Assembly (NCBI GenBank): GCA_051294905.1
Contig: CM119372.1
Location: 1,302,001 to 1,366,000, forward strand
DNA length: 64,000 nucleotides
DNA from: Botryllus schlosseri
Taxonomy: Eukaryota
Reading direction: 5' to 3'
Each line of letters begins with the position of its first letter. Positions within the stretch are counted from its first letter, which is position 1. Both the position numbers and the translations under genes were made by a program. Below the pieces are notes generated by a model that saw only the letters and a list, made by a program, of their open reading frames with translations, had not been told where the DNA came from and searched no databases. Below, piece after piece: positions 22,955-64,000 of this stretch.

Positions 22955-23295
22955 CAATAATCAATAATCGTTGGGTTATAATTTTCATCTGAATAAGTTA
23001 CACACAATGTACAATGCGATAAGACACAATGCGACATAACTAACAGATAGGAGGATGTCGAACGACACGCATCAGTAGCGATCCTTTGCTCTAAAATCCA
23101 CCTCGGCCTAGAGTGCCCGATGTCACAGTTCTTTTCAATGTTGATCTTTTCAAAGCCGCGGCCCTTTTTACTAGTTCTTTCCATTTCTTGTGAGTGCTTT
23201 CTTTCTTCGGGTCTTTTTTGTCGCCATATGAACGGCGACTGCGCGGGAAGAGGAATCCCAGATTAACCTCCGACTGGAATCAAACCGAGTCCGCC
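22955..23295 (-). mobile_element. tRNA-derived SINE-like repeat; second copy at about 27420-27730
   Basis: The two copies align by eye; minus strand carries B-box-like GGTTTGATTCC / GTTTCGATTCC at the 5' head. Confidence 0.55.
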
Positions 23296-26200
23296 AGCTT
23301 GGTTGGCGCTTATCGTTACGGCGTTTATTACAGGTCTACAGGGAAACCCTGTTATAAATTGTCCTTCAAATTTCACTATACTGCTTCTGAAGAGCTTCTT
23401 GGAGGTACAGAACTTCAATATACAATCGATTAGTATATTCATATTTAAATGAATCCGAATATTTTCGGCTGACACTCGTCAGGGGTAATCGTCATAACAA
23501 CTAGTAGCGAATTGGAAAGAACATTGTATGTCAACTACTCAACACTTGTATCATAAGATATGAGTTACCGGCACGAAATTTCGAGTAATCGGAGCGAAGA
23601 GAGCGCTTAATATTAATATACCATGTACTGCTTCTTTATCTATAATCAATTATTCAAAATGTTTACGTGCCGTATACCTGAATCTCATCATACAAACACA
23701 ACCATAATTTTAAGAGTCATAGCGTAGTCCTTATGTTCGTACAGTGACGGTATGAGGTGATATAATCAAGTGGAATATTCGGATAGAAATATTTGACTGC
23801 ACGTCTATAAATCAGCGAATTTTTTTGTCAGCTGTCATTATTGCGATGTTACTTCATTAGAAAGGCCCAGCAAAGAACGAATGGAAAGCGTCTTTGAAAA
23901 AGACAGCCGAAAGATAAAGATCGGACGCTTACATCGGCCATTAGGCCGAGTTTGAGGTTAAATTGAGAGACTGCACTTGGTAGTTTCGTCATCCCCCTAT
24001 ATCTGCTCATGACATCATGGTCCATCGTGAGTGGACGAAAACAAAATAAACTGCAATTATTATTATTATAATGATTGATCCCATGAAGACAGGCATGAAG
24101 ATTTTCTCACTTCGTAAGGATATTAACACTTCCGAAGATTTCTATTCCAAGTCCCTAAGCTCATGTCAGATCAATAACTTTTGTTGATGGACTATTCTAC
24201 GTTCTGAATCATCATCGATTTCAAAATATGTCGTAGGGCAAAAACTTGACGTGATAGAAGAAAACCAGTGGCATTTTTGGGATCAGCACCCCAAAATTAG
24301 CATAACTCAAGTGCAAAGTCAAAGTAAACAAATTTTACGTTCAAAATTGTTGCCCAGAGTTACCCATCACAAGTGTCAGTCGAAAATACTCGGGTTTACT
24401 TCCATGTGAATATATTCTGCAATTGCATGCTATTATCATGTCCATATATTTACATAAGCTTGCTGATTTCACCACACAGCCTCGTAGATAACGCACCCTG
24501 TAACATTAACGCGCCGGAAAGTGAATGTAAATTGAGCGCAATCAAACATCCGATATGTCGGGGAATATTTATTGGGAAAACGGCGATACCTGTTTGAGAA
24601 ATCGATCGAACAGCGCGCGAAAGATTCCAATATCACGGTCTTGCTCTAGGGGGAATTGAAATGGAATAATCCATAATATTCAATGTCAAGCGCCGGGAAA
24701 GCAGTTGGTGATATGATTTTCTCAAACGTTTTTCAGCCAATATATTTTGATCGCGATTTCGTTTTGTAATATAGTACGGGACCCTCCCGTCAGACACCTC
24801 ATTTTGTCGATTCTTCCTTCTTGTTATCTGCATGCCTCTCTTCCTTTTATCGCGATTTTGCGGTCTTTCGAATCGATGAAATTATTAATAAAGTGAACTG
24901 AACTGATGTTGCGGTTGTCCTGATACAGGGAGAAACAAGTTACGATTGCCCGAATTTCATCTGTTCAAGAGTTCGCGACTCTCATTAAAATTTCAGTTAT
25001 TCTAAAGTGACAGCTTTCCACTGCAAAGCACTTTCCCTTCACCGCAGTATATCGTTTGCAAGTTTGCAACCGACTGCGTATAGAAAGAAATAAAATCGTT
25101 TCCAATTGACCAAATCAGCACTTCATTTTCGCAGTAAAATATCCTTTCCACAGCGAATAACTCCCATCACCCTGTACCATATTTTCGAAGAAGCTCATTG
25201 GAGTGTTTGATTGCATTAAGGTACTAATCAAACAAGCATCTATGTTAATCTTGATGTATCTAACACGTTAATGTGCTAGTCATAAACTTGGAGTGTGTGG
25301 TTGTATTAAGTTTACCTCAATTTATTCACCATATCGAGGTATTCTATTCATTGATTTTGGCTGTAATAAGGTACCAGGCTCAAACGAACACATGTTAACT
25401 TGATTTAATAAAAATAGCAAAGAATGACTGGTGTCTTTAGAAAGAGAATCGCATGGGTATCTAATTACTCACAGATGCTTTCTGGTGATTCTTGAAATCG
25501 ACCACGAACGAGACTGAGTAGCATCGCAATTATTTTGACTACAACTTACACAAAATCTCCTAATTAGCGAACGCATATCCGACTTTTGCGAGGCATGGAA
25601 ATGTCGCATATTATCCCGATACAAAATAATGAAGCACGAATCAATATTTATGACAGACAGTCCTCCCTCTCATGTAATCTCCGCGCTTATCCTGAGAAAT
25701 TTGCTGCGATATTTTCCCAGGAGGATGCTTCATCGATCCGGCTCTTCTGTTGATGCCAGTGCGGTTCCGCGCGCCGTGACGTCGGACGATTATCCTTTCA
25801 GGGAATACGGCCGTATTTAAAAGCTTTACAGATCAAAATGATCGTGAGATGGAATCCGATTCTTAAGGGGATACTCCTCGGGCTAAACTGTATATCGGAT
25901 GCATATTCTTTAATAATATGGTAACGATTATTTGCAGAAATACCAGATGTCAAAGAGAGTTAAAAGGTTTATACTACAGTTCGCGTTGAATATGCGACTC
26001 GATGTCGTTGAGTAGTAGCTGATTGGAAGTCACTCGATAACGCATTAGTGTATAGTCAATTTAGAACGAACGAATGGATAAGTTTAGTTTAGAGGTTGAA
26101 CTATATCAGAGTATAGGGTAGTTGATAAAATCAATTACAGTTAAATCCTCAAAAATAGATATGATCAGAGAACAAGCAATTATTTATAGCAGAATTTCGA

Positions 26201-44415: not shown

Positions 44416-44645
44416 AGTTGTATTCTAATTCTCAAAGAAATTGATGTGACAACCCTCAGTATACTTTACATATATATGTAGTAAATAGTTTACAAAATAA
44501 TTCGCCTCTACGTCAGCGTTGGGATCAAGTCACTATCTTTGAGTTACAAGTCGTATTGACTCGCTGCACATTTTGATTCGAGCCAAGTAACTCGATTTCT
44601 AAAGGTGACTAGAGTCAAGTCGGGTCAAGTCACGAGTCCCTAAGT

Positions 44646-46240
44646 CAGGGGTCGGCAACCTTTTGCTAGTCGCGGGCCAAATTCCGAGTGCACAACTTTT
44701 TGGCGGGCCGGAAATTTTCTTGATACTATATTTAACGCCCACATCGGTTTAGTACCCTACATTGCTGCAATCTCAATCATACAAATCACAAAAAGGGCAA
44801 AACACATGTATTTACACTTCAACAACGCAGCATAAATGTGACACTTGGCGCAGCATGCTTTGTGAAAGAATTTTAACTTCTAATAACAAGTCAGATGAAG
44901 CAACAATCAAACCACATTCTAAATGGGCATTAGAATACGTGATCTTAGCTTGCTCTTCGTGAATTCGATTGTTTTAAAGTATTTTTCACATGCGTACGTG
45001 CTATCAAAAGTCGATGCCATTTCTTTTGCATTGTTGGTCAAGCCGGGATAAAGACCCATTTCAAGAACGTACTCTTTGTCAAAGTCATGCAGCTATATGC
45101 TCTTTGTATGAAATTTGTCTTTCAATTCAACTGCATCGCATTTCAAAGGGGCCCATTTGAAATTTCCAGGCAACGGTATTGGCGCTCACATTAAACCGAG
45201 TACTGAGTAGTCTGAATTTATTTTGTACAGAACGAATGTCGGAAAAGCGGGTGGAAATTCAGTTATTAAATTTCTTATCACAGTTACAAAGGTATAGTAC
45301 TGGTACTAGAAGTTTACTCTCCACCAGTATAGGAAAGTGAGCATAATTTTATTTTTACTGTTGACATTCCCAGAGTCGCAGTTTTGTTTCGAATGCGCCT
45401 CAACATCTCATGTATGCAGTTATTTCCTCCTGAAGTTGCAAATTCAATTTGTTAGATGTGACGTTAAATGTACTACGAAAGCAAGATTAGATACCCATTT
45501 TCGATGACAAGATTATGAGTCAGCGATGTTTGTATTTTCAAGGAAAGTTGCTATTTCGTTTCTCAGTTCATACACTCGTGCAAGGATAGCGGCTCGTGCG
45601 AACATGGCAGATATACAGGACATCGCCATATTGATTCTCTGCTTCTAGTAATATATGGGGTAGGCTAACTGTCGGTGATCAAGTTTGTGAGACAAAATCA
45701 ACTTTCCCCACTGTGTCCAAAACACTATTCAGGTATGTTGTCTTGGCGTACAATGTCTTTTGGTGAATTAAACTGCAGATGACTAACCTACGGAGGCTGG
45801 TTATCTCAAATGAAACGGAAAGTTTGAGATTTTGTCATTGCGTCTGAGATGTTCCAAGCGTTTTTGAAGCAGAGGAACCGCACCTTTAATGTCGCACCCT
45901 ATCAGAGTGGCAACCCCTTAAAAAGTATGGTATACCTTGGTTGCGCGATACACACGCTTTATAAGTACTGGTCTAGTCTAGTCTACATACATTCTCCATC
46001 TCCTACTTTTAGTACGAAATAGGCTACTAATCAACAGCCTTCGCATCAGTTTTATGGCGTAACAATAGACCAACACGACGTAGGATATTTACATCGTAGC
46101 AATGTCGCATTCTTACCAATCAGTGCTGCACTGCAGGTTGGAACTCATTACGGAACGGCGGGCCGTATTCTTGTGGTAACTAATTATTTCGTCGCTGGCC
46201 GGACGATTTCGCTTGGCGGGCCGTAGGTTGCCGACCCTTG
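44646..46240 (-). mobile_element. hAT Buster/Charlie-type transposon with decayed GTF2IRD2-like transposase
   Basis: TIR CAGGGGTCGGCAACC...GGTTGCCGACCCTTG; perfect TSD CCCTAAGT; minus-strand remnants LIHQKTL, LDHRQ, LNLQLQ, AFETKLRLWE, RFSDI, STYACEKYF. Confidence 0.9.
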
Positions 46241-48057
46241 CCCTAAGTCATGTAGAATTTTCGTAATAGGCCTACATAACATGATTCAAGTCAAGATGAT
46301 TGAGTCGCTATTTATTCTGAAGCGACTAACGAACATCGAGGTAATTATACCGTCAGTGGGGCATTATAGCCTATATTGCTCACATATGCGTAGAACTGAT
46401 AAACCACGTCGGTAAGCTAACTGAAACTGCCATCCAAATGGATGATATAATATGAAACCTCCGAAGAGATACACATTCCAGCTACACATAATTACGAAAC
46501 GATTTAAGCATGCACCAAATGTTGACGAGTAATATAAATGGATATTTATATCATACATACAAGAGGTGGGCCTACATAAATACACACTGCTTTAGATAGC
46601 TTACTACTAGGCAACGACAACGTATATTTCGGACTCAAATCGGGCAAAAGGACCGCTCAACTATAATGGACGATACAATATTAACACGAGTTTTTGACTC
46701 AATTCAGATTTCGTCATCAACGTTCGGGTTCGGGGTGTAACGTGGCTGGTAAGCGTAGATTCGATTAAAACCGTCGTCAACGCAAGTCGTCAACGCAATA
46801 ACGCAGTAACATGACAGAACCTTGGCCTGTACCAAATTATAGTTCCTTTCGGCGAATTGTCGACACATTTACCTGGACTTCATGGTCATATCAATATACT
46901 AACATTTATTGTGAGTCAATAGGTGATATACCAATTCATCCCGTGCATTTTGGCGCATTCAAGCTTTCTTTTTATACTCTGGTAACTTGGAATACAACTC
47001 GTTTACAAACTTTTCCTGGTGTTACATGTTTAGCAGCTGCTGATTCGTCATCTAAGATCAGTCTGATATATTTTATTTTGACAAGGGAAATAATAACTGA
47101 AAATTATCCTACGCCCAATTATAGCTGAACACCGAACATGGACGTAACAAAGAGACGATTAGCCCGGTAATTCTATATCCGCCTCGAATATCGCCTACCC
47201 TTGCAGGCTAATTTACCAGCCAATTATAATCTGTAGAGTTGGAAACACATGCCATATCAAGCTATTCCTTTTAATTCATACTCTAATATCATGAAAAGGA
47301 AATAAACGCGACATAGATCTTTTCCTGAACTGCAACATATACTAGAACTATAGACTCATCATAACGCTACAACTCGTATTAATCGATCATCTGTGTCGGT
47401 CGGAGCAATGTATTTTTTACATTTTCAGTCTTTCCATGGTAGGCCTATGCTACACCGCAAAACAATTAGGTTCCAAACCAGCTGTCATTTAGCTGCAGTT
47501 TTTGCCGTTTCAAGACTAATGATCACTTCACCAGCTCGGGCGATGGTGACAAGGAATGTTAATGTCACATAATTACATATGTCGACCAGAAATACACTTC
47601 GCAACAAGTTTCGCTTACGAAAATAGCGTGTCAGCATCGTGCGTGTGTCTTATATGAGCTTTGAGCTAGTAGGCTATCTTCATTAGGGCTTTTCAGAAAC
47701 AGCTTTTCTTCTAAATTTTAATGGCTACCCTATAAAATTTGTTACGTTATCTGAAACGCCGGACATCAAATTCAGCTCCGCACTTTGTTCAGTTCTCTGG
47801 AACTCATCAAATATTTGTCCCCCTACATTATTTTCTGGTATCGCCACTGCTTCCAGAATGGTCATTAAGACTAACCCGAAGAACGTTAAACTGCAAGCTT
47901 TCTCCGAAATCTAAGCTTTTGCCAAGTCACAAAAATGAACATGTACCATATTTCACATCTAATACATTACTGGGAGAATACCAACGCACAAAATGAAGTG
48001 CTTCCTTCAAAAACAGTGTTAAAAGAACAAATCCATTAAATCATGAGTAGTATTATA

Positions 48058-51000
48058 CACAGGGTTTATACGCGCCCCAATCACCGTTGAGTATTTGATC
48101 ACGTGACATCTGTTAGCCAATTAGAACGCAGAACGATGTGGGTGTGGTTCCAATACGAGAGAGGTTTTGGTTGTGTGAGAGATGGCATAGTTCCAGTCCA
48201 GTAACGCTGAGATATTTATTACGTCATTGAGTAAGTTGATAACCTATGATTGCGTATTGCAGCATGTTCATGATTACGTGTATAGTTCCAGTCCAGTAAC
48301 GCTGAGATATTTATTACGTCATGGCGTAAGTTGATTACCTTCATTATGATTGCGTATTGCACCATATTCATGATTACGTCACAAGCGTAGTTGATTACTT
48401 TAGTTATTACTAGAGCGGCTTTGCTTAGTTCCAGTAATGCTGAGATATGATTACGTCATGATTGCGTCTAGTTCCAGTCCAATAACACTGAGAAATATTT
48501 ACGTTAATATGATTGTGTAGTTGAAGCATGTTCATGATTACGTCATATGCGTAGTTGATTACTTTAGTAACGCTGAGATGCGTAAGTTGATTACCTTCGT
48601 TATGATTGCGTATTGCACCATATTCATGATTACGTCACAAGCGTAGTTGATTACTTTAGTTATTACTAGAGCGGCTTTGCTTAGTTTCAGTAATGCTGAG
48701 ATATGATTACGTCATGATTGCGTCTAGTTCCAGTCCAATAACACTGAGAAATATTTACGTTACCGCCCGCCCGCTAATTTATCGCGTCATCACCACTCGC
48801 TTGTAAACATTTTCATGATTTTAATGATTAATAAAAATTATTTAAATAAATATTATTACTTTGGTTCTAACTTTGGAAACGAAAAAATCAAATAGATATT
48901 CACAAAGCAACAATATTATTAAAAAAAAATATGTTCACCGTTACAAGCCACAATGATTTCAATGAATATTGGAAAAATATTATTATTAATTATTATTCCT
49001 AAGTTAGAATGAAATATTTTAAAAGATTCAAATCATGTTTTGGTTCTTATAACAGCGTAAGCTAATTATTTTCATTAACAACACAAGATAATTGATAAAT
49101 TAACTAAATAATTAATAGGATATTCAGAAAACAACAATATTATTAAAATAATCAGTGGTAGTGAAACAATAACAACACATGAAAATGGCTAATTTCACGC
49201 AAAATCATAAGATATTCATAATACCAGGCAATTTTTGATATTATTACTTTAGTTTGTGTCTCATTTAGTGTAAAATGATAGCATTTTGTAGTGCATACGG
49301 TAAGGTACTGCGACACTATCCATTAACCAAGAATGTATTGAGTTAATTCTCTGAAGAGCACAGCTGTTGTCACAATGAAATGTTGACTATCGAATGAAGT
49401 TTATTATTGTGTATTGATAGGATACACCTTCATGAGGTGGCAAGGTGTTTGAATTTTGTGTAGCGCTAATTCTAATTAAACTTGGAGCTTGTTGTACAAA
49501 AGATGTTCACCGTTATAAGCTACAATGATTTCAATGAATAATGAAAGAAATATTATTAATCATTATTATTCCAAAGTTATAGAACCAAAGTAATAATACT
49601 TGATAAATGGAATATTTTAAACATATTTAAATCATGTTTGGTGCATATAACAACGTAAGCTGATTATTTTCATTAACATCACGAGATAATTGCTAATTTC
49701 ACAATGATAAGAAACTCACTACAGATCAACGCCTAGAGATCAAAATCCACGAAGCTCGCAGTGTATCTGAAAAGCGTGCGTAACTGAAACAGGTTGAACA
49801 GAACTAGATTAGAATTCGAGCGTGCTTTGCAAACAATGTAAAAGAATAGAAGCGAAGTTAGCTTGATTCCTGGGGACATCTATGTCTTTACCAAGAATGT
49901 TCATCCAACGATAAGGTAAAATTAATTACGCGCGCTTATCATGGATTTTTTGTGCTGTGGTTCTTTCAAGGATAAGATTTTTGATATGCGACTCGCGCAT
50001 AAAATAGCTCTGCCCACCCCTGTACTATAGTAAAGTATTAGATGTGTAGTTAAATGTATATTTTGCCAGATTTTTTGTTTTATGACTAGCAAAAATTTGT
50101 GGTTCAGCGAAGGTTTGAAGACTAATGTAAGTGCTTTGTGGATCAGTAAAGGTTGTGAATATGTGAACCACACAAAAAATAGCGTTGAGCACAATGATTT
50201 GTCATTGATTGATGATCAGGTTCAATTCGAGAGTTCAATTGCTAATTTTGAACCCTATAGGACCACTGCCACCATTCGCGTATTGCTATTACGCTATAAA
50301 TGCATTAATATATATTCAGGGAAGAAAATGGCGAAACGCACATGAAATCATTAAAGTGCTACAATCGTGAATCGCAGTTTGCCCGCCTCTGCTATAACTA
50401 GTAGTCTCAAGGGAATGATAACTGCAGTGAAGATGTTTCAGCTTTACTTAATAGTTCTATGTCAATTCCGCTCAGTAATTCGAATGTGACAAGCCACAGC
50501 TCATTCCGTTTAGAGATAAATTTGCAATAAAACGGACATTTCGATCACGTTATTTTTATGCTTGGGAGATATTACCGCTATTTGGAGCAATACTTTCGCT
50601 ATATGATCATATCAGGGTTGTTCAACGACGTAAACTTTAAATATTATGAATATCATATACTTTATGCTAAATTAATTGACGGTTTATTCAACTCTCATTA
50701 ATTTAGTATTCTAGAACCACTGAAGTCTCATGAAATAACAAAATACCGTGCTTTGCAAACAATGTAAACAGAATAGAAGCGAAGTTAGCTTGGTTCTCTA
50801 GGGACATCTATGCCTTACTCAGGAAAGCTCATCCGTCTTTAAAAGCTGCTTGATGGGAAGTGAATACCCTAGACAAGTCCGAACCTGTCTATATTGCAGC
50901 ATATTAGAGATAGCTTGTGCAATAGTCCTAAATACAACAAAATGCGGAGAGTTGATATCGCAATAGGTACGATCATCACTTCTTGTACTTTACTAGAAAT

Positions 51001-54000
51001 TTACTGCTGATAAATGAGTAATTGACTTTAGTCGATATTCTCGTACTACGAAACTGAAGAATGAATAGACGCGTTTTCGTACTATAGAATGATATCGTTT
51101 CTACAAAACGTTTTTTGATATCAAAATTACTTTTTTACATGAATGGTCACGTATCTTAATATTCAAATAACCCAACACAGAACTAGTATTACAAGAATAT
51201 CATAGTTCTTGTACCAAAGTTGTACGTGCACAATATATGTTTAAGGTAAGTCCTACACATTCATGATTTCGTCCGAGTTTGTATTTTAGTAAATATTATA
51301 CCGACATCGCATCAGCGTAAACATTCAATTACGAATTTGGGAGAAAGTAGGCTACACTCAATTTCGTAAGATAGATATATGAATCTTATAAAGTAGATAG
51401 AAAAGGAAAACTATTAACATAAGGTAAGCGCGAAGTAGCCTACGTAATTTTCGATTTCAAACAAATACCACAAACTGTGTTAGTTGTACTTCTTCAGAGT
51501 ACTCAATTAAGTTTTAAGCTATATGCAACAAATATAAAGGAAAACTATTAACATAAGGTAAGCGCGAAGTACGTAAATTTCGATGTCATACAAATATCAC
51601 AAACTGTGATAGTTGTACTTCTTCAGAGTACTCAATTAGGTTTTTAACTGTATGCAACAAATACTCTCCAGTGCTCATGATATTGCCCTGCTTCAACTCC
51701 ATGCTAGTTACAGTATTAATCACTGCGTTAACCGAATTCCAAACATAGAAATGTTATGTCGCCGCGAAATCATCGTCGAGGCTACTCAAGGGTTAAATTA
51801 CACTCAAAAGCTAATCAAGTAGCACGCAATAGCTTAACTAGTAGAATAGTCACCTATATGATCTTCCTTCACTATTATGCAACTAATGCAATCGCAACTA
51901 CTAGATGTTTGCACAGTGCTCTATATAGCTATAATTCAATTTTGAATGATAAAACGCATATTACCGCCACAGCACCGCTATTGAATATTGGTGATTTATT
52001 CTCATAATATTGAAAATTTGCTTGATATTGTGAATTATACTGTGTCGGCAACGCGTAGAGCTCCCTTGAGATACTGGCACGCTTTCTCGATATTTACTAA
52101 TCGTTCAGAACAACGCATAGACCTCCCTTGAGATCCTCACACACTTTCTCGATATCAGAATCCCTTTTTTGATTTGTTATGTAAAAGCATCATCAGTTTC
52201 GCATACATGAGCTCATATGATTCCAAATAAACGAAAATTATTTTTTATTAATCATTGAAATCATGTAGATTAAAAACAGTGATCGTCTTTTGTATAAACT
52301 AATTCATCGACAAAACAAGATAATCGATAATTTAACTAAAAAATCAATAAGATATTCACACGAAACTATCGTCAGTTCTCCAAGAGTAAATATCGTGTTC
52401 TACAAGTGTTAAGTTATTGTATTATGTAGCTAGTAATTGGTGCACGTAATCTCGGGATCGAACCAACGTGTGTTAACTTGCGTTATTATGTACCTAGTAA
52501 TTGGTGCGAGTAATGCCGCAACTGCTGTTGCTCAATGCATTTACCATGTTCGTACCAAGCATCTTAATAAGGATAGACAGCCCCAAGCAAATAATGTAAG
52601 TATGTATGTATGAATGATGGGTCTTATGATGCTTAACGATAGGAGCTGGTCTTCTATTCTATATTCCGAAATAATCAAGTTGTGGTTTACCAACACCTCG
52701 CCTCATAGAAACTTTAGTAGAATCACTTATAACTCCTCACGTTCACTCAAGTAAATCTAATTTGATACTCGAGTACTGAACCTTAATTTTCCAGCAGTGT
52801 GATAGACGCCGTCAAATGGTACTCAACATTGCATAATTCTGCTCGAATACAAGTAAAAGTACAGATTTCAAAGTAAGTAAGTAAGTAAGTAGGTAAGTAA
52901 GTGAGCAACTGGTTATGTTTGTAGACTATATCTCCACTTCTACCGTTCAGAGATGTTGAGCAGAGAAGTACATGTATTTCTTCAAAGTAGTCAAGTAGGT
53001 TTTTGCCTATATGCACCAACTACTCAAGTGTTTATTATATAGGCCTGTTTCGAATTCAAGACCGTTTCAGTATTAAACAAAAATGAACCTTGAATACTAA
53101 CATTTTATAATGTGACATTTTATATGCATAAACGAAGAAACGTCACTTTTACAGTGGTTCGGTATGATTTCTATATTATTCCACTCGCGTTATTGGACTG
53201 CGATGTGACGCTGAGCTATATCTCGATGCTTGGGCTTCCGCATTAATTTTTGTCGATTTATTCTGCCTTATGTAGATTTAACATAAGGAAGGTTATTTAA
53301 CTCATAAGATTTGAAATACGTATTTGCTCGAGTTAAAGCCATAACGCTTGGAGTAAAATTTTACGTGGTTTTCGTTAATATCCAACTGGGCTAATTTCGA
53401 AATGTAAATTGAAAAACTCAAATATCGCATAGTAGGACTTCGCAAATTTTCGATGTATTTTTGCTATTTTTTCATATTGATAAGTCATTCGGGACGGTGA
53501 AATGCATTATAGGAAATAGATGAAACTGGTACAATTCATCAAGACCCCTTAAAAAAGTACATTACATTTCAACATTTTATTAGCAGGTAGTCGAAATACC
53601 ACAAACTGTGCTAACCTTCGGAGTTGTTAAGTAAAGAAGTACTCGTACTTCTTCGGAGTACCCAAGTAGGTTTTTCGCCTACATGCACCAAATACTCTCA
53701 AGTCCTTATGATATTGGAGTGCTTCAACTTAATGATAGTTATAGTATTGAGCAGAAATATACCTGGAGTACTAACGTTTTATTTACTCGGAAATGACTAC
53801 TTCTATCTTATTTTAAAGGATTCCTCGCTCGACGCGAAATTTTATTAGGTTTTGAATAATATCCAACATTTAGGTTCACTTTGAAGGCTACTTCGTAAAA
53901 CTCAAATATTGCACAGTGAGAGTTCGCAAATTCTCGATGTATTTTTTGGTATTTTTATTGCGGTAAGTCATTCTGCAGCGCGAAAATGCATCGTAGGATA

Positions 54001-56007
54001 TAGATGAAACTGATACCGCTCACCAAGACCACTGGACCACTGAAAAAAGTACATTTCAACATTTTAGTAGCAGTAAATTCCTAGTAAAGTACAAGAAGTG
54101 ATGATTTCCGAGTGAGTTAAAAAGTAAGTATTGAAGGTATAGTTTGGTTGAAAACCCAAAACTCTGAAATAGAAGTAGATGCAGTGTAAAAAGTTAATCA
54201 CTTGATTAAGTATAGCGCAAGCAGACCAAACCTATACTTGAGTACTCTAAAATGTACAAGTACTTCGCTATGGACTCCCTCCATGTCAAAAGTGACTAGG
54301 TTTTAGACTACTTTATCGGTACTTGACAGTTTCAGTTTTAGATAAAATTTGGAATAAAAACTAGCTCATTCACCCACTTGGAAATCTCTTCTTTAATCTG
54401 TACTTGAGCGTAGCAAGTAAATCTCATATATTAATAATTCTACACGTACACTTGACCATATTTTATGACTTACAAAATTACTTTTCACTATATTTGAAGT
54501 CAAGTCTGTCAAATAGCACTATATGTTACGATGAGCTTATATTCGTTCTGTTTGATCATCTTGACTAACAATATTCACTCGGTGAGCAATTCAGTGATAA
54601 CCTTGGGACTTGGAACAGTGTTATATGACATCATAGCGATACGAGGTTACGACAGTTTATAATTAGCTACCTTACGACACCAAATTTCGTTAGTTCATCT
54701 CCACCTTCAAATATCGTGTTATACAAATATTGTGTATACGGAACAAATACATATATGGCTATGTTGTTGCAATCTTCAAAAAAGTACCTCCCTCAGTAAG
54801 CAATTTCTCGTAGGCTATGCATACAAATGAGGACTGTTACATCAACGAGTGGTAACTTGTTGTATTATGTAGCTAGTAATTAGTGCAAGTAAGTCCGCAA
54901 CTACTGTTCAGGACCTTTTCTGCGTTTTTGCCAAGCATCCTCGTAAGGACAGACAGTCCCAATCAGCTAATGCAAGTGTGTATGTATGTATGAGGGGTCT
55001 TATGCAGGTTGACGAATGAAGTTGATCGTCTATTCTATTCCGAAATAATCAAGTTAGTGGTTTTTAACAGGACCTCACCTCATAGAAACTTCAGTAGAAT
55101 AACTTATAACTCCTCACGTTTACTCAAGTAAATCTAATTTGATAATCAAGTACTGAATCTTAATTTTCAAACGACTTCAAATTTAACTCTTACTTATGAG
55201 ATTAAATATAATAACTTTTCACGTTGCAGTGTATTTTACAGCATGAGCCAAGTGATTTCATAATTAATACAAGATAATTAAATGAATTTCTAGAGTATTA
55301 TAAGATATTCGTGTCATACTCCTTCGTATATCATAAAAGAATACCTACTGCAGTCGATTTGTAATTATTTGCGCTGTGTTTGATTAACTCAATCATGTTG
55401 CAGTGTTTTTTAATAACGAAACACTTTTACAGCATAAACCAAATAATTTCATAATAAACACAAGCTAATTGAATGAATTTACTGAAATGTAGTATGCCGC
55501 GCTGATAAGATTAATTATAATAAACTTATCGTGCTACAGTGATTTTTCAATAACGAAACTCTTTTACAGCACAACCTAAGAAATTTCATAATAAGCATAA
55601 AATACCCGGTGTCGTTGATTTGGTACTTATTTGCGGTCGATCTTATTTATATCCAATTGAGTCGTAGTTTGGTGATTGAGCCCATAAGGAATTTTCACTT
55701 CATCATGATCCGTAAGTACTAATTGATGGTACATCCTCTTTTCAGCTTGAAGATGTGAACTATAAAATGTTGTATGCCGCGCTGATGAGATTAATTATAA
55801 CATACTTTTCATGTTACAGTGATTTTTCAATAACTAAACTCATTTACAGCATAAGCAGAGTAATTTCATAAGAAACATAAAATACCTGCTGTCGATGATG
55901 TGCACTAATTTGCGGCGTGTTCAATTAACTCATGCGGCTCTGAAATATAGTAAGCAGGGCGATGCGTATTCGTTGAGTTGAATAAACATAAAAAATATTT
56001 CCGCGCC
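48058..56007 (+). repeat. Left arm of the giant inverted repeat
   Basis: Position x pairs with 112058-x; mirrored ORF pairs (49922/62136, 50082/61976, 51756/60302, 52783/59275, 53624/58434). Confidence 0.98.
48188..48762 (+). repeat. Subterminal modular repeat array rich in TTACGTCA (mirror at 63296-63870)
   Basis: 183-bp direct repeat 48324-48506 / 48580-48762 plus shorter AGTTCCAGTCCA(G/A)TAAC(G/A)CTGAGA modules. Confidence 0.9.
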
Positions 56008-56049
56008 CTCCTAAACCTAATTCGTCCTAACCCTACAACCTAATGCTGA

Positions 56050-59000
56050 GGCGCGGAAATATTTTTTTATGTTTATTCAACTCAACGAATACGCATCGCC
56101 CTGCTTACTATATTTCAGAGCCGCATGAGTTAATTGAACACGCCGCAAATTAGTGCACATCATCGACAGCAGGTATTTTATGTTTCTTATGAAATTACTC
56201 TGCTTATGCTGTAAATGAGTTTAGTTATTGAAAAATCACTGTAACATGAAAAGTATGTTATAATTAATCTCATCAGCGCGGCATACAACATTTTATAGTT
56301 CACATCTTCAAGCTGAAAAGAGGATGTACCATCAATTAGTACTTACGGATCATGATGAAGTGAAAATTCCTTATGGGCTCAATCACCAAACTACGACTCA
56401 ATTGGATATAAATAAGATCGACCGCAAATAAGTACCAAATCAACGACACCGGGTATTTTATGCTTATTATGAAATTTCTTAGGTTGTGCTGTAAAAGAGT
56501 TTCGTTATTGAAAAATCACTGTAGCACGATAAGTTTATTATAATTAATCTTATCAGCGCGGCATACTACATTTCAGTAAATTCATTCAATTAGCTTGTGT
56601 TTATTATGAAATTATTTGGTTTATGCTGTAAAAGTGTTTCGTTATTAAAAAACACTGCAACATGATTGAGTTAATCAAACACAGCGCAAATAATTACAAA
56701 TCGACTGCAGTAGGTATTCTTTTATGATATACGAAGGAGTATGACACGAATATCTTATAATACTCTAGAAATTCATTTAATTATCTTGTATTAATTATGA
56801 AATCACTTGGCTCATGCTGTAAAATACACTGCAACGTGAAAAGTTATTATATTTAATCTCATAAGTAAGAGTTAAATTTGAAGTCGTTTGAAAATTAAGA
56901 TTCAGTATTTGATTATCAAATTAGATTTACTTGAGTAAACGTGAGGAGTTATAAGTTATTCTACTGAAGTTTCTATGAGGTGAGGTCCTGTTAAAAACCA
57001 CTAACTTGATTATTTCGGAATAGAATAGACGATCAACTTCATTCGTCAACCTGCATAAGACCCCTCATACATACATACACACTTGCATTAGCTGATTGGG
57101 ACTGTCTGTCCTTACGAGGATGCTTGGCAAAAACGCGGAAAAGGTCCTGAACAGTAGTTGCGGACTTACTTGCACTAATTACTAGCTACATAATACAACA
57201 AGTTACCACTCGTTGATGTAACAGTCCTCATTTGTATGCATAGCCTACGAGAAATTGCTTACTGAGGGAGGTACTTTTTTGAAGATTGCAACAACATAGC
57301 CATATATGTATTTGTTCCGTATACACAATATTTGTATAACACGATATTTGAAGGTGGAGATGAACTAACGAAATTTGGTGTCGTAAGGTAGCTAATTATA
57401 AACTGTCGTAACCTCGTATCGCTATGATGTCATATAACACTGTTCCAAGTCCCAAGGTCATCACTGAATTGCTCACCGAGTGAATATTGTTAGTCAAGAT
57501 GATCAAACAGAACGAATATAAGCTCATCGTAACATATAGTGCTATTTGACAGACTTGACTTCAAATATAGTGAAAAGTAATTTTGTAAGTCATAAAATAT
57601 GGTCAAGTGTACGTGTAGAATTATTAATATATGAGATTTACTTGCTACGCTCAAGTACAGATTAAAGAAGAGATTTCCAAGTGGGTGAATGAGCTAGTTT
57701 TTATTCCAAATTTTATCTAAAACTGAAACTGTCAAGTACCGATAAAGTAGTCTAAAACCTAGTCACTTTTGACATGGAGGGAGTCCATAGCGAAGTACTT
57801 GTACATTTTAGAGTACTCAAGTATAGGTTTGGTCTGCTTGCGCTATACTTAATCAAGTGATTAACTTTTTACACTGCATCTACTTCTATTTCAGAGTTTT
57901 GGGTTTTCAACCAAACTATACCTTCAATACTTACTTTTTAACTCACTCGGAAATCATCACTTCTTGTACTTTACTAGGAATTTACTGCTACTAAAATGTT
58001 GAAATGTACTTTTTTCAGTGGTCCAGTGGTCTTGGTGAGCGGTATCAGTTTCATCTATATCCTACGATGCATTTTCGCGCTGCAGAATGACTTACCGCAA
58101 TAAAAATACCAAAAAATACATCGAGAATTTGCGAACTCTCACTGTGCAATATTTGAGTTTTACGAAGTAGCCTTCAAAGTGAACCTAAATGTTGGATATT
58201 ATTCAAAACCTAATAAAATTTCGCGTCGAGCGAGGAATCCTTTAAAATAAGATAGAAGTAGTCATTTCCGAGTAAATAAAACGTTAGTACTCCAGGTATA
58301 TTTCTGCTCAATACTATAACTATCATTAAGTTGAAGCACTCCAATATCATAAGGACTTGAGAGTATTTGGTGCATGTAGGCGAAAAACCTACTTGGGTAC
58401 TCCGAAGAAGTACGAGTACTTCTTTACTTAACAACTCCGAAGGTTAGCACAGTTTGTGGTATTTCGACTACCTGCTAATAAAATGTTGAAATGTAATGTA
58501 CTTTTTTAAGGGGTCTTGATGAATTGTACCAGTTTCATCTATTTCCTATAATGCATTTCACCGTCCCGAATGACTTATCAATATGAAAAAATAGCAAAAA
58601 TACATCGAAAATTTGCGAAGTCCTACTATGCGATATTTGAGTTTTTCAATTTACATTTCGAAATTAGCCCAGTTGGATATTAACGAAAACCACGTAAAAT
58701 TTTACTCCAAGCGTTATGGCTTTAACTCGAGCAAATACGTATTTCAAATCTTATGAGTTAAATAACCTTCCTTATGTTAAATCTACATAAGGCAGAATAA
58801 ATCGACAAAAATTAATGCGGAAGCCCAAGCATCGAGATATAGCTCAGCGTCACATCGCAGTCCAATAACGCGAGTGGAATAATATAGAAATCATACCGAA
58901 CCACTGTAAAAGTGACGTTTCTTCGTTTATGCATATAAAATGTCACATTATAAAATGTTAGTATTCAAGGTTCATTTTTGTTTAATACTGAAACGGTCTT

Positions 59001-62000
59001 GAATTCGAAACAGGCCTATATAATAAACACTTGAGTAGTTGGTGCATATAGGCAAAAACCTACTTGACTACTTTGAAGAAATACATGTACTTCTCTGCTC
59101 AACATCTCTGAACGGTAGAAGTGGAGATATAGTCTACAAACATAACCAGTTGCTCACTTACTTACCTACTTACTTACTTACTTACTTTGAAATCTGTACT
59201 TTTACTTGTATTCGAGCAGAATTATGCAATGTTGAGTACCATTTGACGGCGTCTATCACACTGCTGGAAAATTAAGGTTCAGTACTCGAGTATCAAATTA
59301 GATTTACTTGAGTGAACGTGAGGAGTTATAAGTGATTCTACTAAAGTTTCTATGAGGCGAGGTGTTGGTAAACCACAACTTGATTATTTCGGAATATAGA
59401 ATAGAAGACCAGCTCCTATCGTTAAGCATCATAAGACCCATCATTCATACATACATACTTACATTATTTGCTTGGGGCTGTCTATCCTTATTAAGATGCT
59501 TGGTACGAACATGGTAAATGCATTGAGCAACAGCAGTTGCGGCATTACTCGCACCAATTACTAGGTACATAATAACGCAAGTTAACACACGTTGGTTCGA
59601 TCCCGAGATTACGTGCACCAATTACTAGCTACATAATACAATAACTTAACACTTGTAGAACACGATATTTACTCTTGGAGAACTGACGATAGTTTCGTGT
59701 GAATATCTTATTGATTTTTTAGTTAAATTATCGATTATCTTGTTTTGTCGATGAATTAGTTTATACAAAAGACGATCACTGTTTTTAATCTACATGATTT
59801 CAATGATTAATAAAAAATAATTTTCGTTTATTTGGAATCATATGAGCTCATGTATGCGAAACTGATGATGCTTTTACATAACAAATCAAAAAAGGGATTC
59901 TGATATCGAGAAAGTGTGTGAGGATCTCAAGGGAGGTCTATGCGTTGTTCTGAACGATTAGTAAATATCGAGAAAGCGTGCCAGTATCTCAAGGGAGCTC
60001 TACGCGTTGCCGACACAGTATAATTCACAATATCAAGCAAATTTTCAATATTATGAGAATAAATCACCAATATTCAATAGCGGTGCTGTGGCGGTAATAT
60101 GCGTTTTATCATTCAAAATTGAATTATAGCTATATAGAGCACTGTGCAAACATCTAGTAGTTGCGATTGCATTAGTTGCATAATAGTGAAGGAAGATCAT
60201 ATAGGTGACTATTCTACTAGTTAAGCTATTGCGTGCTACTTGATTAGCTTTTGAGTGTAATTTAACCCTTGAGTAGCCTCGACGATGATTTCGCGGCGAC
60301 ATAACATTTCTATGTTTGGAATTCGGTTAACGCAGTGATTAATACTGTAACTAGCATGGAGTTGAAGCAGGGCAATATCATGAGCACTGGAGAGTATTTG
60401 TTGCATACAGTTAAAAACCTAATTGAGTACTCTGAAGAAGTACAACTATCACAGTTTGTGATATTTGTATGACATCGAAATTTACGTACTTCGCGCTTAC
60501 CTTATGTTAATAGTTTTCCTTTATATTTGTTGCATATAGCTTAAAACTTAATTGAGTACTCTGAAGAAGTACAACTAACACAGTTTGTGGTATTTGTTTG
60601 AAATCGAAAATTACGTAGGCTACTTCGCGCTTACCTTATGTTAATAGTTTTCCTTTTCTATCTACTTTATAAGATTCATATATCTATCTTACGAAATTGA
60701 GTGTAGCCTACTTTCTCCCAAATTCGTAATTGAATGTTTACGCTGATGCGATGTCGGTATAATATTTTCTAAAATACAAACTCGGACGAAATCATGAATG
60801 TGTAGGACTTACCTTAAACATATATTGTGCACGTACAACTTTGGTACAAGAACTATGATATTCTTGTAATACTAGTTCTGTGTTGGGTTATTTGAATATT
60901 AAGATACGTGACCATTCATGTAAAAAAGTAATTTTGATATCAAAAAACGTTTTGTAGAAACGATATCATTCTATAGTACGAAAACGCGTCTATTCATTCT
61001 TCAGTTTCGTAGTACGAGAATATCGACTAAAGTCAATTACTCATTTATCAGCAGTAAATTTCTAGTAAAGTACAAGAAGTGATGATCGTACCTATTGCGA
61101 TATCAACTCTCCGCATTTTGTTGTATTTAGGACTATTGCACAAGCTATCTCTAATATGCTGCAATATAGACAGGTTCGGACTTGTCTAGGGTATTCACTT
61201 CCCATCAAGCAGCTTTTAAAGACGGATGAGCTTTCCTGAGTAAGGCATAGATGTCCCTAGAGAACCAAGCTAACTTCGCTTCTATTCTGTTTACATTGTT
61301 TGCAAAGCACGGTATTTTGTTATTTCATGAGACTTCAGTGGTTCTAGAATACTAAATTAATGAGAGTTGAATAAACCGTCAATTAATTTAGCATAAAGTA
61401 TATGATATTCATAATATTTAAAGTTTACGTCGTTGAACAACCCTGATATGATCATATAGCGAAAGTATTGCTCCAAATAGCGGTAATATCTCCCAAGCAT
61501 AAAAATAACGTGATCGAAATGTCCGTTTTATTGCAAATTTATCTCTAAACGGAATGAGCTGTGGCTTGTCACATTCGAATTACTGAGCGGAATTGACATA
61601 GAACTATTAAGTAAAGCTGAAACATCTTCACTGCAGTTATCATTCCCTTGAGACTACTAGTTATAGCAGAGGCGGGCAAACTGCGATTCACGATTGTAGC
61701 ACTTTAATGATTTCATGTGCGTTTCGCCATTTTCTTCCCTGAATATATATTAATGCATTTATAGCGTAATAGCAATACGCGAATGGTGGCAGTGGTCCTA
61801 TAGGGTTCAAAATTAGCAATTGAACTCTCGAATTGAACCTGATCATCAATCAATGACAAATCATTGTGCTCAACGCTATTTTTTGTGTGGTTCACATATT
61901 CACAACCTTTACTGATCCACAAAGCACTTACATTAGTCTTCAAACCTTCGCTGAACCACAAATTTTTGCTAGTCATAAAACAAAAAATCTGGCAAAATAT

Positions 62001-64000
62001 ACATTTAACTACACATCTAATACTTTACTATAGTACAGGGGTGGGCAGAGCTATTTTATGCGCGAGTCGCATATCAAAAATCTTATCCTTGAAAGAACCA
62101 CAGCACAAAAAATCCATGATAAGCGCGCGTAATTAATTTTACCTTATCGTTGGATGAACATTCTTGGTAAAGACATAGATGTCCCCAGGAATCAAGCTAA
62201 CTTCGCTTCTATTCTTTTACATTGTTTGCAAAGCACGCTCGAATTCTAATCTAGTTCTGTTCAACCTGTTTCAGTTACGCACGCTTTTCAGATACACTGC
62301 GAGCTTCGTGGATTTTGATCTCTAGGCGTTGATCTGTAGTGAGTTTCTTATCATTGTGAAATTAGCAATTATCTCGTGATGTTAATGAAAATAATCAGCT
62401 TACGTTGTTATATGCACCAAACATGATTTAAATATGTTTAAAATATTCCATTTATCAAGTATTATTACTTTGGTTCTATAACTTTGGAATAATAATGATT
62501 AATAATATTTCTTTCATTATTCATTGAAATCATTGTAGCTTATAACGGTGAACATCTTTTGTACAACAAGCTCCAAGTTTAATTAGAATTAGCGCTACAC
62601 AAAATTCAAACACCTTGCCACCTCATGAAGGTGTATCCTATCAATACACAATAATAAACTTCATTCGATAGTCAACATTTCATTGTGACAACAGCTGTGC
62701 TCTTCAGAGAATTAACTCAATACATTCTTGGTTAATGGATAGTGTCGCAGTACCTTACCGTATGCACTACAAAATGCTATCATTTTACACTAAATGAGAC
62801 ACAAACTAAAGTAATAATATCAAAAATTGCCTGGTATTATGAATATCTTATGATTTTGCGTGAAATTAGCCATTTTCATGTGTTGTTATTGTTTCACTAC
62901 CACTGATTATTTTAATAATATTGTTGTTTTCTGAATATCCTATTAATTATTTAGTTAATTTATCAATTATCTTGTGTTGTTAATGAAAATAATTAGCTTA
63001 CGCTGTTATAAGAACCAAAACATGATTTGAATCTTTTAAAATATTTCATTCTAACTTAGGAATAATAATTAATAATAATATTTTTCCAATATTCATTGAA
63101 ATCATTGTGGCTTGTAACGGTGAACATATTTTTTTTTAATAATATTGTTGCTTTGTGAATATCTATTTGATTTTTTCGTTTCCAAAGTTAGAACCAAAGT
63201 AATAATATTTATTTAAATAATTTTTATTAATCATTAAAATCATGAAAATGTTTACAAGCGAGTGGTGATGACGCGATAAATTAGCGGGCGGGCGGTAACG
63301 TAAATATTTCTCAGTGTTATTGGACTGGAACTAGACGCAATCATGACGTAATCATATCTCAGCATTACTGAAACTAAGCAAAGCCGCTCTAGTAATAACT
63401 AAAGTAATCAACTACGCTTGTGACGTAATCATGAATATGGTGCAATACGCAATCATAACGAAGGTAATCAACTTACGCATCTCAGCGTTACTAAAGTAAT
63501 CAACTACGCATATGACGTAATCATGAACATGCTTCAACTACACAATCATATTAACGTAAATATTTCTCAGTGTTATTGGACTGGAACTAGACGCAATCAT
63601 GACGTAATCATATCTCAGCATTACTGGAACTAAGCAAAGCCGCTCTAGTAATAACTAAAGTAATCAACTACGCTTGTGACGTAATCATGAATATGGTGCA
63701 ATACGCAATCATAATGAAGGTAATCAACTTACGCCATGACGTAATAAATATCTCAGCGTTACTGGACTGGAACTATACACGTAATCATGAACATGCTGCA
63801 ATACGCAATCATAGGTTATCAACTTACTCAATGACGTAATAAATATCTCAGCGTTACTGGACTGGAACTATGCCATCTCTCACACAACCAAAACCTCTCT
63901 CGTATTGGAACCACACCCACATCGTTCTGCGTTCTAATTGGCTAACAGATGTCACGTGATCAAATACTCAACGGTGATTGGGGCGCGTATAAACCCTGTG
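56050..64000 (-). repeat. Right arm of the giant inverted repeat
   Basis: Reverse complement of 48058-56007; only 4 substitutions and one 1-nt indel noticed by eye. Confidence 0.98.

What the first reader, a model, noticed from the sequence alone, without database searches (positions are those of the whole stretch)
48058..64000. Near-perfect non-coding palindrome of at least 15.9 kb
Seen: 48058-56007 is the reverse complement of 56050-64000, separated by only about 40 bp. By eye I found just four substitutions (51290/60768, 54599/57459, 54921/57137, 55150/56908) and one A-run indel near the centre. Established: long palindromes with tiny spacers are unstable (hairpin/cruciform) and rare. Inference: very recent origin by fold-back replication, or ongoing arm homogenisation; transcription through it would give kilobases of dsRNA.
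Basis: seen in the sequence. Interest (0 to 1): 0.9.

Follow-up and report, generated by a model that had tools for sequence, protein, structure and literature searches.

The report
Gene-less 16-kb palindromic Maverick-dependent transposon
The 16-kb palindrome is real and is a complete, gene-less mobile element that borrows the ends of a virus-like Maverick/Polinton transposon living in the same genome, so it looks like a hairpin-shaped parasite of that element, not a local accident or an assembly error.

Summary

The symmetry does not run into the flanks. It stops at 5'-AGTAGT...ACTACT-3' termini flanked by a 6-bp target-site duplication, ATCATG.

A second copy on another contig is 99.98% identical, with unrelated flanks and its own duplication. 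About 34 diverged relatives share the conserved loop.

The arms have no ORF over 103 aa. The first 234 bp match, at 92-94%, the terminal repeats of a 17.9-kb Maverick/Polinton in the same genome. That element has a chromodomain integrase, an A32-type ATPase and a polymerase-like 1,310-aa ORF.

All 10 elements checked have 6-bp duplications.

Arms within an element differ by 0.03-0.14%, while lineages differ by 4-5.7%. So the arms evolve in concert.

Best reading: a non-autonomous, snap-back-type Maverick satellite. Assembly artefact and one-off local fold-back are rejected.

The scan had already noted members of this family elsewhere in this genome (e1-7786796, e1-7786340). The helper link is new here.

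The parts
48040..48045 (.). Left copy of the 6-bp target-site duplication, ATCATG. The right copy lies at 64013-64018, just past the window end, and was seen in locus L007.
48046..48279 (+). Terminal 234 bp, starting with the Maverick end motif (AGT)2. It is 92.7% and 94.0% identical to the left and right terminal inverted repeats of the 17.86-kb Maverick at C10:4908425-4926284.
   Evidence: end motif as described in PMC8097293
48280..48760 (+). Subterminal region with ~95-180-bp direct sub-repeats. It matches the helper's left end up to helper position ~473, which is beyond the helper's ~245-bp terminal repeat.
48046..56008 (+). Left arm, 7,963 bp, 33-35% GC, with no ORF over 103 aa. Small pieces (arm positions 2811-2879 and 4004-4187) match the helper's left non-coding region at positions 871-1139.
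55995..56008 (+). Inner end of the left arm, ending in a short G+C-rich clamp. It pairs with 56050-56063 and closes the stem next to the loop.
56009..56049 (+). Asymmetric 41-nt loop with four CCTAA (TTAGG on the other strand) telomere-like motifs. It is conserved in all 12 centres aligned, and a 25-nt probe spanning the clamp and loop start occurs 39 times in the genome.
56050..64000 (-). Right arm, the reverse complement of the left arm. It continues to 64012, 12 bp beyond the window.

Best explanation
The feature is a complete 15,967-bp non-autonomous derivative of a Maverick/Polinton virus-like transposon, built as one whole-length palindrome.

Shown:
- It is an insertion with Maverick-type ends, 5'-(AGT)2...(ACT)2-3', and a 6-bp target-site duplication.
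- It exists as two near-identical copies at unrelated sites and as about 34 relatives.
- It has no genes.
- Its ends match the terminal repeats of a gene-bearing 17.9-kb Maverick in the same genome. The match runs past that element's repeat into its left end only.
- Arms within an element stay about 30-100 times more alike than lineages are to each other, and structural differences between lineages are mirrored on both arms.

Inferred:
- It is moved in trans by the helper's integrase, and probably copied by the helper's protein-primed polymerase from the two identical ends.
- It arose, and is from time to time re-made, by copy-back (snap-back) synthesis. A single strand holding one arm and the centre folds at the G+C clamp next to the loop, and the missing arm is synthesised from the other one.
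- This resetting is not part of every move. Sister copies share 2-3 arm differences.
- Its length (gap-free members run about 13.6-19 kb, mostly 14.5-16 kb, against 17.9 kb for the helper) suggests a size constraint such as packaging into the helper's capsid.
For: - Boundaries and duplications: 9 of 9 palindromic elements and 1 of 1 helper examined have perfect 6-bp duplications, all different.
- End motif: (AGT)2-3//(ACT)2-3, the commonest motif reported for vertebrate Mavericks (PMC8097293, passages read).
- Second copy: C15:7712557-7728523, 2 mismatches and 1 gap in 15,971 bp, with flanks unrelated over 12-20 kb.
- Helper: C10:4908425-4926284, 17,860 bp, 247-bp terminal repeats, duplication GTCGAG. 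Its ORFs hit rve + Chromo (4e-13, 3e-10) and Pox_A32 ATPase (1e-9). A 1,310-aa ORF has nearest Atlas clusters (0.97; 19 of 30 hits) that carry PF03175.
- Match to the helper: arm 1-234 at 92.7-94.0%. Arm 237-534 matches helper positions 142-423, and pieces match up to helper position 1139. All of this is left-end only; the right end matches only inside its terminal repeat.
- Concerted arms: arm-to-arm substitutions are 2-11 per ~7.6-8.0 kb in 6 of 6 gap-free elements. Lineages differ by 4.0-5.7% over the inner 2.5 kb.
- In four related elements, 131 variable sites are identical on both arms, against 30 with an arm difference, in 7,554 columns.
- Arm segments that are inverted or deleted relative to the window copy are mirrored in both arms.
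- Shared arm differences in sister copies: 2 substitutions plus the indel in the window/C15 pair, and 3 in the C11/C2 pair.
- Read support: an exact unitig ends at 48046. Flank depth is ~20, against 59-95 for the four exact arm unitigs listed, which fits 2 loci x 2 arms.
Against: - Only ~0.7 kb at each end plus two short pieces resemble the helper. The remaining ~7 kb of each arm has no detectable Maverick origin. A simple snap-back copy of the helper genome would keep helper sequence.
- The helper's terminal repeats are only 92-94% identical to the element's ends, so trans-mobilisation by this particular helper is not shown.
- The polymerase call rests on language-model likeness. Pfam found no polymerase domain in the 1,310-aa ORF, and the capsid hit is sub-threshold (E 0.15).
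- Sister pairs show almost no re-symmetrisation since they split (1 symmetric against 15 asymmetric sites). Resetting is therefore rare, and host gene conversion could account for it equally well.
- No read or contig listed bridges the loop.
- No extrachromosomal, encapsidated or transcribed form was observed.
Confidence: 0.72

Rival explanations
1. Same identity (a Maverick-mobilised gene-less foldback element), but the arms are kept alike by the host. Intrachromosomal gene conversion between the arms of each resident copy does the work, as in the large palindromes of sex chromosomes. There is then no copy-back synthesis, no replication by the helper polymerase and no packaging; the element simply uses the integrase.
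For: Arm identity is 99.86-99.97% in 6 of 6 elements. Symmetric sites outnumber asymmetric ones 131 to 30. Sister copies keep shared arm differences, so moving does not reset the arms. Most of the arm is not helper-derived.
Against: Large rearrangements (an inverted ~900-bp segment, mirrored deletions of 128-510 bp) are symmetric in both arms, which needs very long conversion tracts. In the sister pair C11/C2 only 1 symmetric site stands against 15 asymmetric ones. The narrow length range near the helper's size is left unexplained.
Confidence: 0.3
2. A foldback transposon of another superfamily (Drosophila FB / MULE-like, Galileo / P-like, sea-urchin TU-like) whose ends only happen to resemble Maverick ends.
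For: Whole-element inverted repeats with sub-repeats near the ends are the hallmark of foldback elements.
Against: 6-bp duplications in 10 of 10 elements, whereas FB has 9 bp and P/Galileo 7-8 bp (recalled). The (AGT)n end motif is present. There is 234 bp of 92-94% identity, plus subterminal identity, to the ends of an element encoding an rve-chromo integrase and an A32 ATPase with the same duplication length. No other transposase-bearing partner appeared among the hits to the termini (only 40 of 206 first-look candidates were scored).
Confidence: 0.04
3. A one-off local fold-back duplication at this site, for example after a double-strand break or a replication template switch.
For: Near-perfect arms and a tiny spacer.
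Against: The same 15,967-bp unit sits at a second, unrelated site with its own duplication. The loop and the architecture are shared by lineages 4-5.7% apart.
Confidence: 0.02
4. An assembly or read artefact (a fold-back chimeric long read, or wrongly joined arms).
For: Assemblers struggle with this family. Three relatives examined carry a 100-N gap flanked by duplicated, identical centres. No listed read piece bridges the loop.
Against: Unique, different flanks lie on both sides, with a matching 6-bp duplication. The structure is identical at a second locus and in 4 further gap-free relatives. The arms carry real differences that are shared between loci. Arm unitig depth is about 3-4.7 times flank depth, as expected for 2 loci x 2 arms and not 2 x 1 (the run may be from the sample that was assembled).
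Confidence: 0.03

Closest known systems
Maverick/Polinton virus-like transposons and their non-autonomous derivatives
   Same: 6-bp target-site duplications, the (AGT)2//(ACT)2 end motif, terminal inverted repeats, a 13-19 kb size, and ends homologous to a gene-bearing Maverick in the same genome (PMC8097293, passages read).
   Different: It has no genes at all. The inverted repeat is the whole element: 7,963-bp arms, against 46-1,447 bp reported for vertebrate Mavericks (PMC8097293) and ~2 kb gene-bearing repeats in butterfly polintons (bioRxiv 10.1101/2025.02.07.637071, passages read). Most of the arm sequence is unrelated to the helper.
Snap-back / copy-back defective viral genomes, including the defective genomes with long inverted repeats in incomplete adenovirus particles
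   Same: A full-length palindrome with a small non-complementary turn, no coding capacity, the same genome end at both termini, dependence on a helper, and a helper with a protein-primed polymerase of the adenovirus-related lineage. The definition of snap-back genomes is taken from PMC13506859 (passages read). The adenovirus case (Daniell 1976; Daniell and Mullenbach 1978) is recalled: both papers were asked for and are not held.
   Different: It is integrated in the chromosome and inherited as a transposon family with lineages. The interior is mostly not helper sequence. Replication, packaging and interference are untested.
Foldback transposons (Drosophila FB, Galileo, sea-urchin TU)
   Same: Very long inverted repeats with internal sub-repeats, often no coding capacity, and mobilisation in trans. 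Galileo comes from PMC3573991 (search listing and abstract only); the others are recalled.
   Different: The duplication length and end motif are those of Mavericks, not of MULE or P elements. The arms are mostly unique sequence, not arrays of short repeats: only 2 tandem arrays were found in 8 kb.
Large genomic palindromes kept alike by arm-to-arm gene conversion (e.g. primate Y-chromosome palindromes; recalled)
   Same: Arm identity of 99.9% or more, maintained over evolutionary time.
   Different: Those are not mobile, carry genes and have kilobase spacers. Here the spacer is 41 nt and the unit transposes.

Membership tests
Maverick/Polinton (as a non-autonomous member) | 6-bp target-site duplication | tested here: met
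   Window copy ATCATG, C15 copy CATCCA. All 9 palindromic elements examined and the 1 helper have perfect 6-bp duplications, all different.
Maverick/Polinton (as a non-autonomous member) | Conserved end motif 5'-(AGT)2//(ACT)2-3' (or (AG)3//(CT)3) | tested here: met
   AGTAGT...ACTACT in the window copy and the helper; AGTAGTAGT in a sister lineage. The motif is as given in PMC8097293.
Maverick/Polinton (as a non-autonomous member) | Terminal inverted repeats homologous to those of an autonomous element in the same genome | tested here: met
   Arm 1-234 is 92.7% / 94.0% identical to the left / right repeat of C10:4908425-4926284, and 18 of the first 19 nt match.
Maverick/Polinton (autonomous) | Core genes inside the element: protein-primed PolB, retroviral-type integrase, packaging ATPase, protease, capsid proteins | tested here: not met
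   No ORF over 103 aa in the arm, and no protein-level likeness to the helper beyond its non-coding left end. The element cannot be autonomous.
Maverick/Polinton (the putative helper at C10) | Integrase, ATPase, PolB and capsid genes | tested here: inconclusive
   Met for rve + Chromo (4.4e-13, 3e-10) and Pox_A32 (1.3e-9). For PolB, Pfam found nothing; there is only Atlas feature likeness (0.97) to clusters carrying PF03175. The capsid hit is a sub-threshold DJR-like hit at E 0.15. No protease was recognised.
Snap-back defective genome / satellite of a virus | Whole-length self-complementarity with a short unpaired turn | tested here: met
   7,963-bp arms and a 41-nt loop. The central 109 nt fold as one stem with a ~42-nt loop, z = -12.
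Snap-back defective genome / satellite of a virus | Both ends derived from one and the same end of the helper genome | tested here: met
   Similarity beyond the helper's ~247-bp repeat is to its left end only (helper positions up to 473, plus 871-1139). The right end matches only within the repeat.
Snap-back defective genome / satellite of a virus | Interior made of helper sequence | tested here: not met
   About 7 of the 8 kb of each arm has no match to the helper.
Snap-back defective genome / satellite of a virus | Replication and packaging by the helper; interference with it | not testable with these tools
   Only indirect evidence: lengths of 13.6-19 kb among gap-free members, against 17.86 kb for the helper. 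The loop probe has no match in viral or metagenome contig collections.
Drosophila-type Foldback (FB) elements | 9-bp duplication and arms built of short tandem repeats (recalled) | tested here: not met
   6-bp duplications. Only two small tandem arrays in the arm.

The most novel reading that the evidence does not exclude
These palindromes are integrated snap-back defective-interfering genomes, that is, satellites of a still active Maverick virus. On this reading they are copied by the helper's protein-primed polymerase from two identical left ends. They are held near helper genome length because they ride in its capsid, and they are periodically re-made perfect by hairpin-primed copy-back at the conserved G+C clamp and telomere-like loop. 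This would be the first natural defective-interfering-type parasite described for a Maverick/Polinton. It would also be indirect genomic evidence that these elements replicate and package as viruses in an animal.
Probability: 0.3. Interest if true: 0.8.

Novelty: new variant of a known kind. Interest (0 to 1): 0.6.

Why it matters
Perfect palindromes of many kilobases with a tiny spacer are expected to be unstable. Here roughly three dozen persist as a transposing family.

Tying them to a Maverick helper gives a concrete system in which to ask three questions:
- How do Mavericks replicate? Protein-primed strand displacement predicts snap-back by-products.
- Are they packaged? A length constraint on a gene-less element would suggest so.
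- How do long palindromes keep their arms identical?

There is also a practical point. The family breaks assemblies, leaving 100-N gaps with duplicated centres, so such regions should be read with care.

No paper describing whole-length palindromic Maverick derivatives turned up in four full-text searches. That is not proof that none exists.

Tried and rejected
- **Symmetry into the flanks (artefact test).** Rejected: identity falls to 24-29% left of 48046.
- **'Double-centre' relatives of 23-28 kb** (C4:272..., C16:364..., C2:170...). These first looked like concatemers. Each has a 100-N gap between two identical centres (0 differences in ~2,506 bp), so I treat them as scaffolding artefacts.
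- **Are arm differences clustered near the centre?** They seemed so in the window copy (the shared differences lie within ~1.4 kb of the centre), but not in the other four elements. Dropped.
- **Is the nested ~16.6-kb insert in the C15:2238... relative the helper?** No DNA match to it. It is a different Maverick-like element (rve integrase, P-loop ATPase, 1,336-aa ORF).
- **Read laying.** Only Logan unitigs were available for DNA, and none of the listed pieces bridges the loop or the whole element.
- **RNA.** No RNA holder was listed. One raw RNA run gave 26 reads, 92% of them running on into unlike sequence. Nothing can be said on expression or dsRNA.
- **Loop probe in viral contigs and metagenome contigs.** 0 matches each.
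- **Other blanks.** PDB sequence search of the 1,310-aa ORF gave only weak zinc-finger hits. PHROGs gave integrase only. Rfam and tRNA scans of the arm found nothing.
- **Papers not held.** The two adenovirus papers (PMC354034, PMC354903) are not in the library.
- **Host telomere.** The host repeat is TTAGGG (11,717 hits, against 45 for TTAGG). The loop's TTAGG motifs are only telomere-like, and their meaning is open.
Full report
**Observation.**
The window is G000:C2:1302001-1366000, from a 495.5-Mb, 219-contig eukaryotic assembly.

A mirror axis at i+j = 112058 gives 99.9% complementarity. Neighbouring axes give about 33%.

Ungapped mirror identity is 998-1000 per 1,000 in the seven bins from 48058 to 55057. 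It is 24-29% in all 20 bins further left.

After adding 20 kb of the contig to the right, BLAST and direct inspection place the ends at 48046 and 64012.

The anatomy is two arms of 7,963 bp around a 41-nt loop at 56009-56049, 15,967 bp in all. GC is 33-35%, against 36-46% in the rest of the window.

The arm has six stop-to-stop ORFs of 70 aa or more, the longest 103 aa. It has two small tandem arrays, no Rfam family and no tRNA.

**It is an insertion, not a local accident or an artefact.**
The element starts with AGTAGT and ends with ACTACT. It is flanked by ATCATG on both sides.

A second copy at C15:7712557-7728523 differs by 2 mismatches and 1 gap in 15,971 bp. It has unrelated flanks over 12-20 kb and its own duplication, CATCCA.

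A four-way alignment of both copies and their reverse complements sorts the arm differences:
- Two of the four substitutions (54599/57459 and 55150/56908) and the indel are shared by both copies.
- The other two (51290 and 54921) are private to the window copy's left arm.

So both arms were carried over as they were at the last move, and the window copy has picked up two mutations since.

In a DNA run that holds the stretch, an exact unitig ends at 48046. Flank depth is about 20, and the four exact arm unitigs listed have depths of 59-95. This fits two loci with two arms each. The run may be from the assembled sample, and no listed piece bridges the loop.

**A family.**
The central 2 kb and the terminal 1 kb find many relatives with the same ends and the same centre.

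A 25-nt probe of the clamp and loop start occurs 39 times (22 + 17), against 0 for the reversed control. Five pairs of hits lie 8-12 kb apart. The three such pairs I fetched each flank a 100-N gap and are identical (0 differences in ~2,506 bp), so I read them as scaffolding duplicates. That leaves about 34 elements.

I fetched seven relatives. The four gap-free ones are whole-length palindromes of 15,227, 15,227, 15,796 and 32,305 bp. The last carries a nested ~16.6-kb insertion in one arm.

Pairs of termini give further lengths of about 13.6, 14.5, 14.9, 14.9, 15.2, 15.2 and 19.0 kb. I did not check these for gaps.

Perfect 6-bp duplications, all different, flank 9 of 9 palindromic elements examined.

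The loop is conserved in all 12 centres aligned. This includes a lineage in which ~510 bp next to the centre is deleted on both sides.

**The helper.**
Five hits to the terminal 234 bp were listed without a partner terminus. I fetched two.

Both lead into coding DNA with the same ORFs. The one read in full, C10:4908425-4926284, has these features:
- 17,860 bp long.
- 247-bp terminal repeats, 96.8% identical to each other.
- The same first 19 nt as the palindrome, apart from one base.
- The duplication GTCGAG.

Its ORFs include:
- An rve integrase with a chromodomain (4.4e-13; 3e-10).
- A Pox_A32-type packaging ATPase (1.3e-9).
- A ubiquitin-conjugating enzyme (2e-48) and a Bcl-2 family protein (1e-19).
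- A 1,310-aa ORF with no Pfam polymerase hit. Its nearest Atlas clusters by features (0.97; 19 of 30 hits) carry PF03175, the protein-primed PolB family.
- A 443-aa ORF with only a sub-threshold double-jelly-roll hint (E 0.15).

These features match the Maverick description in PMC8097293 (passages read): 6-bp duplications, the (AGT)2//(ACT)2 end motif, sizes of 12.7-24.6 kb and terminal repeats of 46-1,447 bp.

The palindrome's first 234 bp are 92.7% and 94.0% identical to the helper's left and right repeats. Similarity then continues only into the helper's left end, to helper position ~473, with further pieces at 871-1139. The other ~7 kb of each arm has no match to the helper.

**Concerted evolution of the arms.**
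Arm-to-arm substitutions number 4, 2, 9, 9, 4 and 11 in the six gap-free elements. That is 0.03-0.14%.

Over the inner 2.5 kb, the same elements differ from other lineages by 4.0-5.7%, and from closer relatives by 0.7-1.4%.

In four related elements, 131 variable sites are identical on both arms of every element, and 30 show an arm difference, in 7,554 ungapped columns.

Arm segments that are inverted or deleted relative to the window copy are mirrored in both arms.

Without some process that copies one arm onto the other, the arms would be at least as far apart as the lineages are.

The process is not tied to every move. Sister copies share arm differences. The sister pair C11/C2 shows 1 symmetric site against 15 asymmetric ones.

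**Mechanism.**
Shown: Maverick-type integration, dependence on trans functions, and concerted arms.

Inferred (my estimate for the whole reading is 0.72; for the copy-back step alone, about 0.45):
- The element is a snap-back-type derivative carrying the helper's left end twice.
- It is moved by the helper's integrase, and probably copied by its protein-primed polymerase.
- From time to time it is re-made symmetric. A strand holding one arm and the centre folds at the G+C clamp, and the other arm is synthesised from it. The central 109 nt fold as one stem with a ~42-nt open loop at -30.8 kcal/mol, z = -12.

The lengths, close to the helper's, hint at a packaging constraint.

The main rival for the homogenising step is arm-to-arm gene conversion in the chromosome. 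My data do not separate the two.

The closest analogues are the snap-back defective genomes defined in PMC13506859 (passages read) and the long-inverted-repeat defective genomes of adenovirus. The latter are recalled: Daniell 1976 and Daniell and Mullenbach 1978 are not held.

**Novelty.**
Mavericks, their duplications and their end motifs are known. Polintons with ~2-kb gene-bearing repeats are described in bioRxiv 10.1101/2025.02.07.637071 (passages read). Terminal palindromes of ~52 nt in endogenous virophages are described in bioRxiv 10.64898/2026.07.28.741278 (passages read).

Four full-text searches and a review of giant transposons (PMC6431247, passages read) turned up no whole-length palindromic, gene-less Maverick derivative.

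This scan had already noted relatives elsewhere in the same genome:
- e1-7786796: a 13.6-kb element with Maverick-like ends.
- e1-7786340: nested 13-15-kb palindromes with lock-step arms, filed under foldback transposons.

- The gene-bearing helper with matching ends.
- The 10-of-10 count of 6-bp duplications.
- The left-end-only match to the helper.
- The counts of symmetric and asymmetric sites.

**Open points.**
- The loop holds four TTAGG motifs in 41 nt. The host telomere repeat is TTAGGG (11,717 hits, against 45 for TTAGG). The meaning of this is unknown.
- Parts of the arm are extremely abundant in reads: summed depth reaches 25,216 against ~20 in the flank, and there were 1,459 first-look candidates in the genome. 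The arms share sequence with a much larger repeat population that I did not resolve.
- Expression, extrachromosomal forms and packaging are untested.

Noticed in passing
L032+L034 (G000:C10:4908425-4926284): A 17.86-kb Maverick/Polinton with open ORFs and 247-bp terminal repeats. Besides the integrase, ATPase and polymerase-like genes, it carries cargo ORFs for a ubiquitin-conjugating enzyme (UQ_con, 2e-48) and a Bcl-2 family protein (1e-19) next to its right end. A second copy with the same ORFs lies in L033 (C4:1885901-1895900).
   Followed up: partly
L022-L024 (G000:C15, about 22389130-22406090): One arm of a 32.3-kb palindromic relative is interrupted by a ~16.6-kb element. The insert has ~560-bp inverted ends, a 1,336-aa ORF, an rve integrase (4e-8) and a P-loop ATPase. 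It is a different Maverick-like element, with no DNA match to the helper.
   Followed up: partly
L013-L021 (C4:27229001-27255400, C16:3640001-3668600, C2:17023501-17047500): Three family members each contain a 100-N gap flanked by duplicated, identical copies of the palindrome centre. The assembly evidently breaks inside these palindromes, so their stated lengths (23-28 kb) are unreliable. Two further pairs of centres (on C8 and C11) were not examined.
   Followed up: partly
G000:C1:4324-14862 versus G000:C15:22408935-22419455: The first ~15 kb of contig C1 gives the same hits, with the same scores and spacing, as a stretch of C15. This may be redundant assembly at a contig end.
   Followed up: no
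several contigs: Family members tend to come as near-identical pairs at unrelated sites with different duplications: window/C15 (0.04%), C11/C2 (0.08%) and C13/C4 (0.12%). By matching lengths, C15:244607/C5:2585515 and C3:33643268/C1:3169799 look like pairs too. Only the best 40 candidates per search were scored, so larger groups may exist.
   Followed up: partly
window 56009-56049: The conserved 41-nt loop holds four TTAGG motifs (read on the minus strand), while the host's telomere repeat is TTAGGG. The loop has no match in the helper.
   Followed up: partly
window 53805-54371 and 57774-58340: The summed unitig depth of this arm segment is 20,000-25,000, against ~20 in the unique flank. The genome search had 1,459 first-look candidates. 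Part of the arm therefore belongs to a far more abundant repeat population.
   Followed up: partly
window 44641-46245: A ~1.6-kb unit bounded by 21-nt inverted ends (86% complementary) and with no long ORF. It lies 1.8 kb left of the palindrome and is not part of it.
   Followed up: no
runs X5-X7 (organism B, study P2), laid on window 47001-64000: Contigs from a differently labelled organism cover 21-26 of the 30 bins of the element at 95-99% identity. One contig ends inside the loop at 56023. The family therefore also exists outside the assembled organism.
   Followed up: partly
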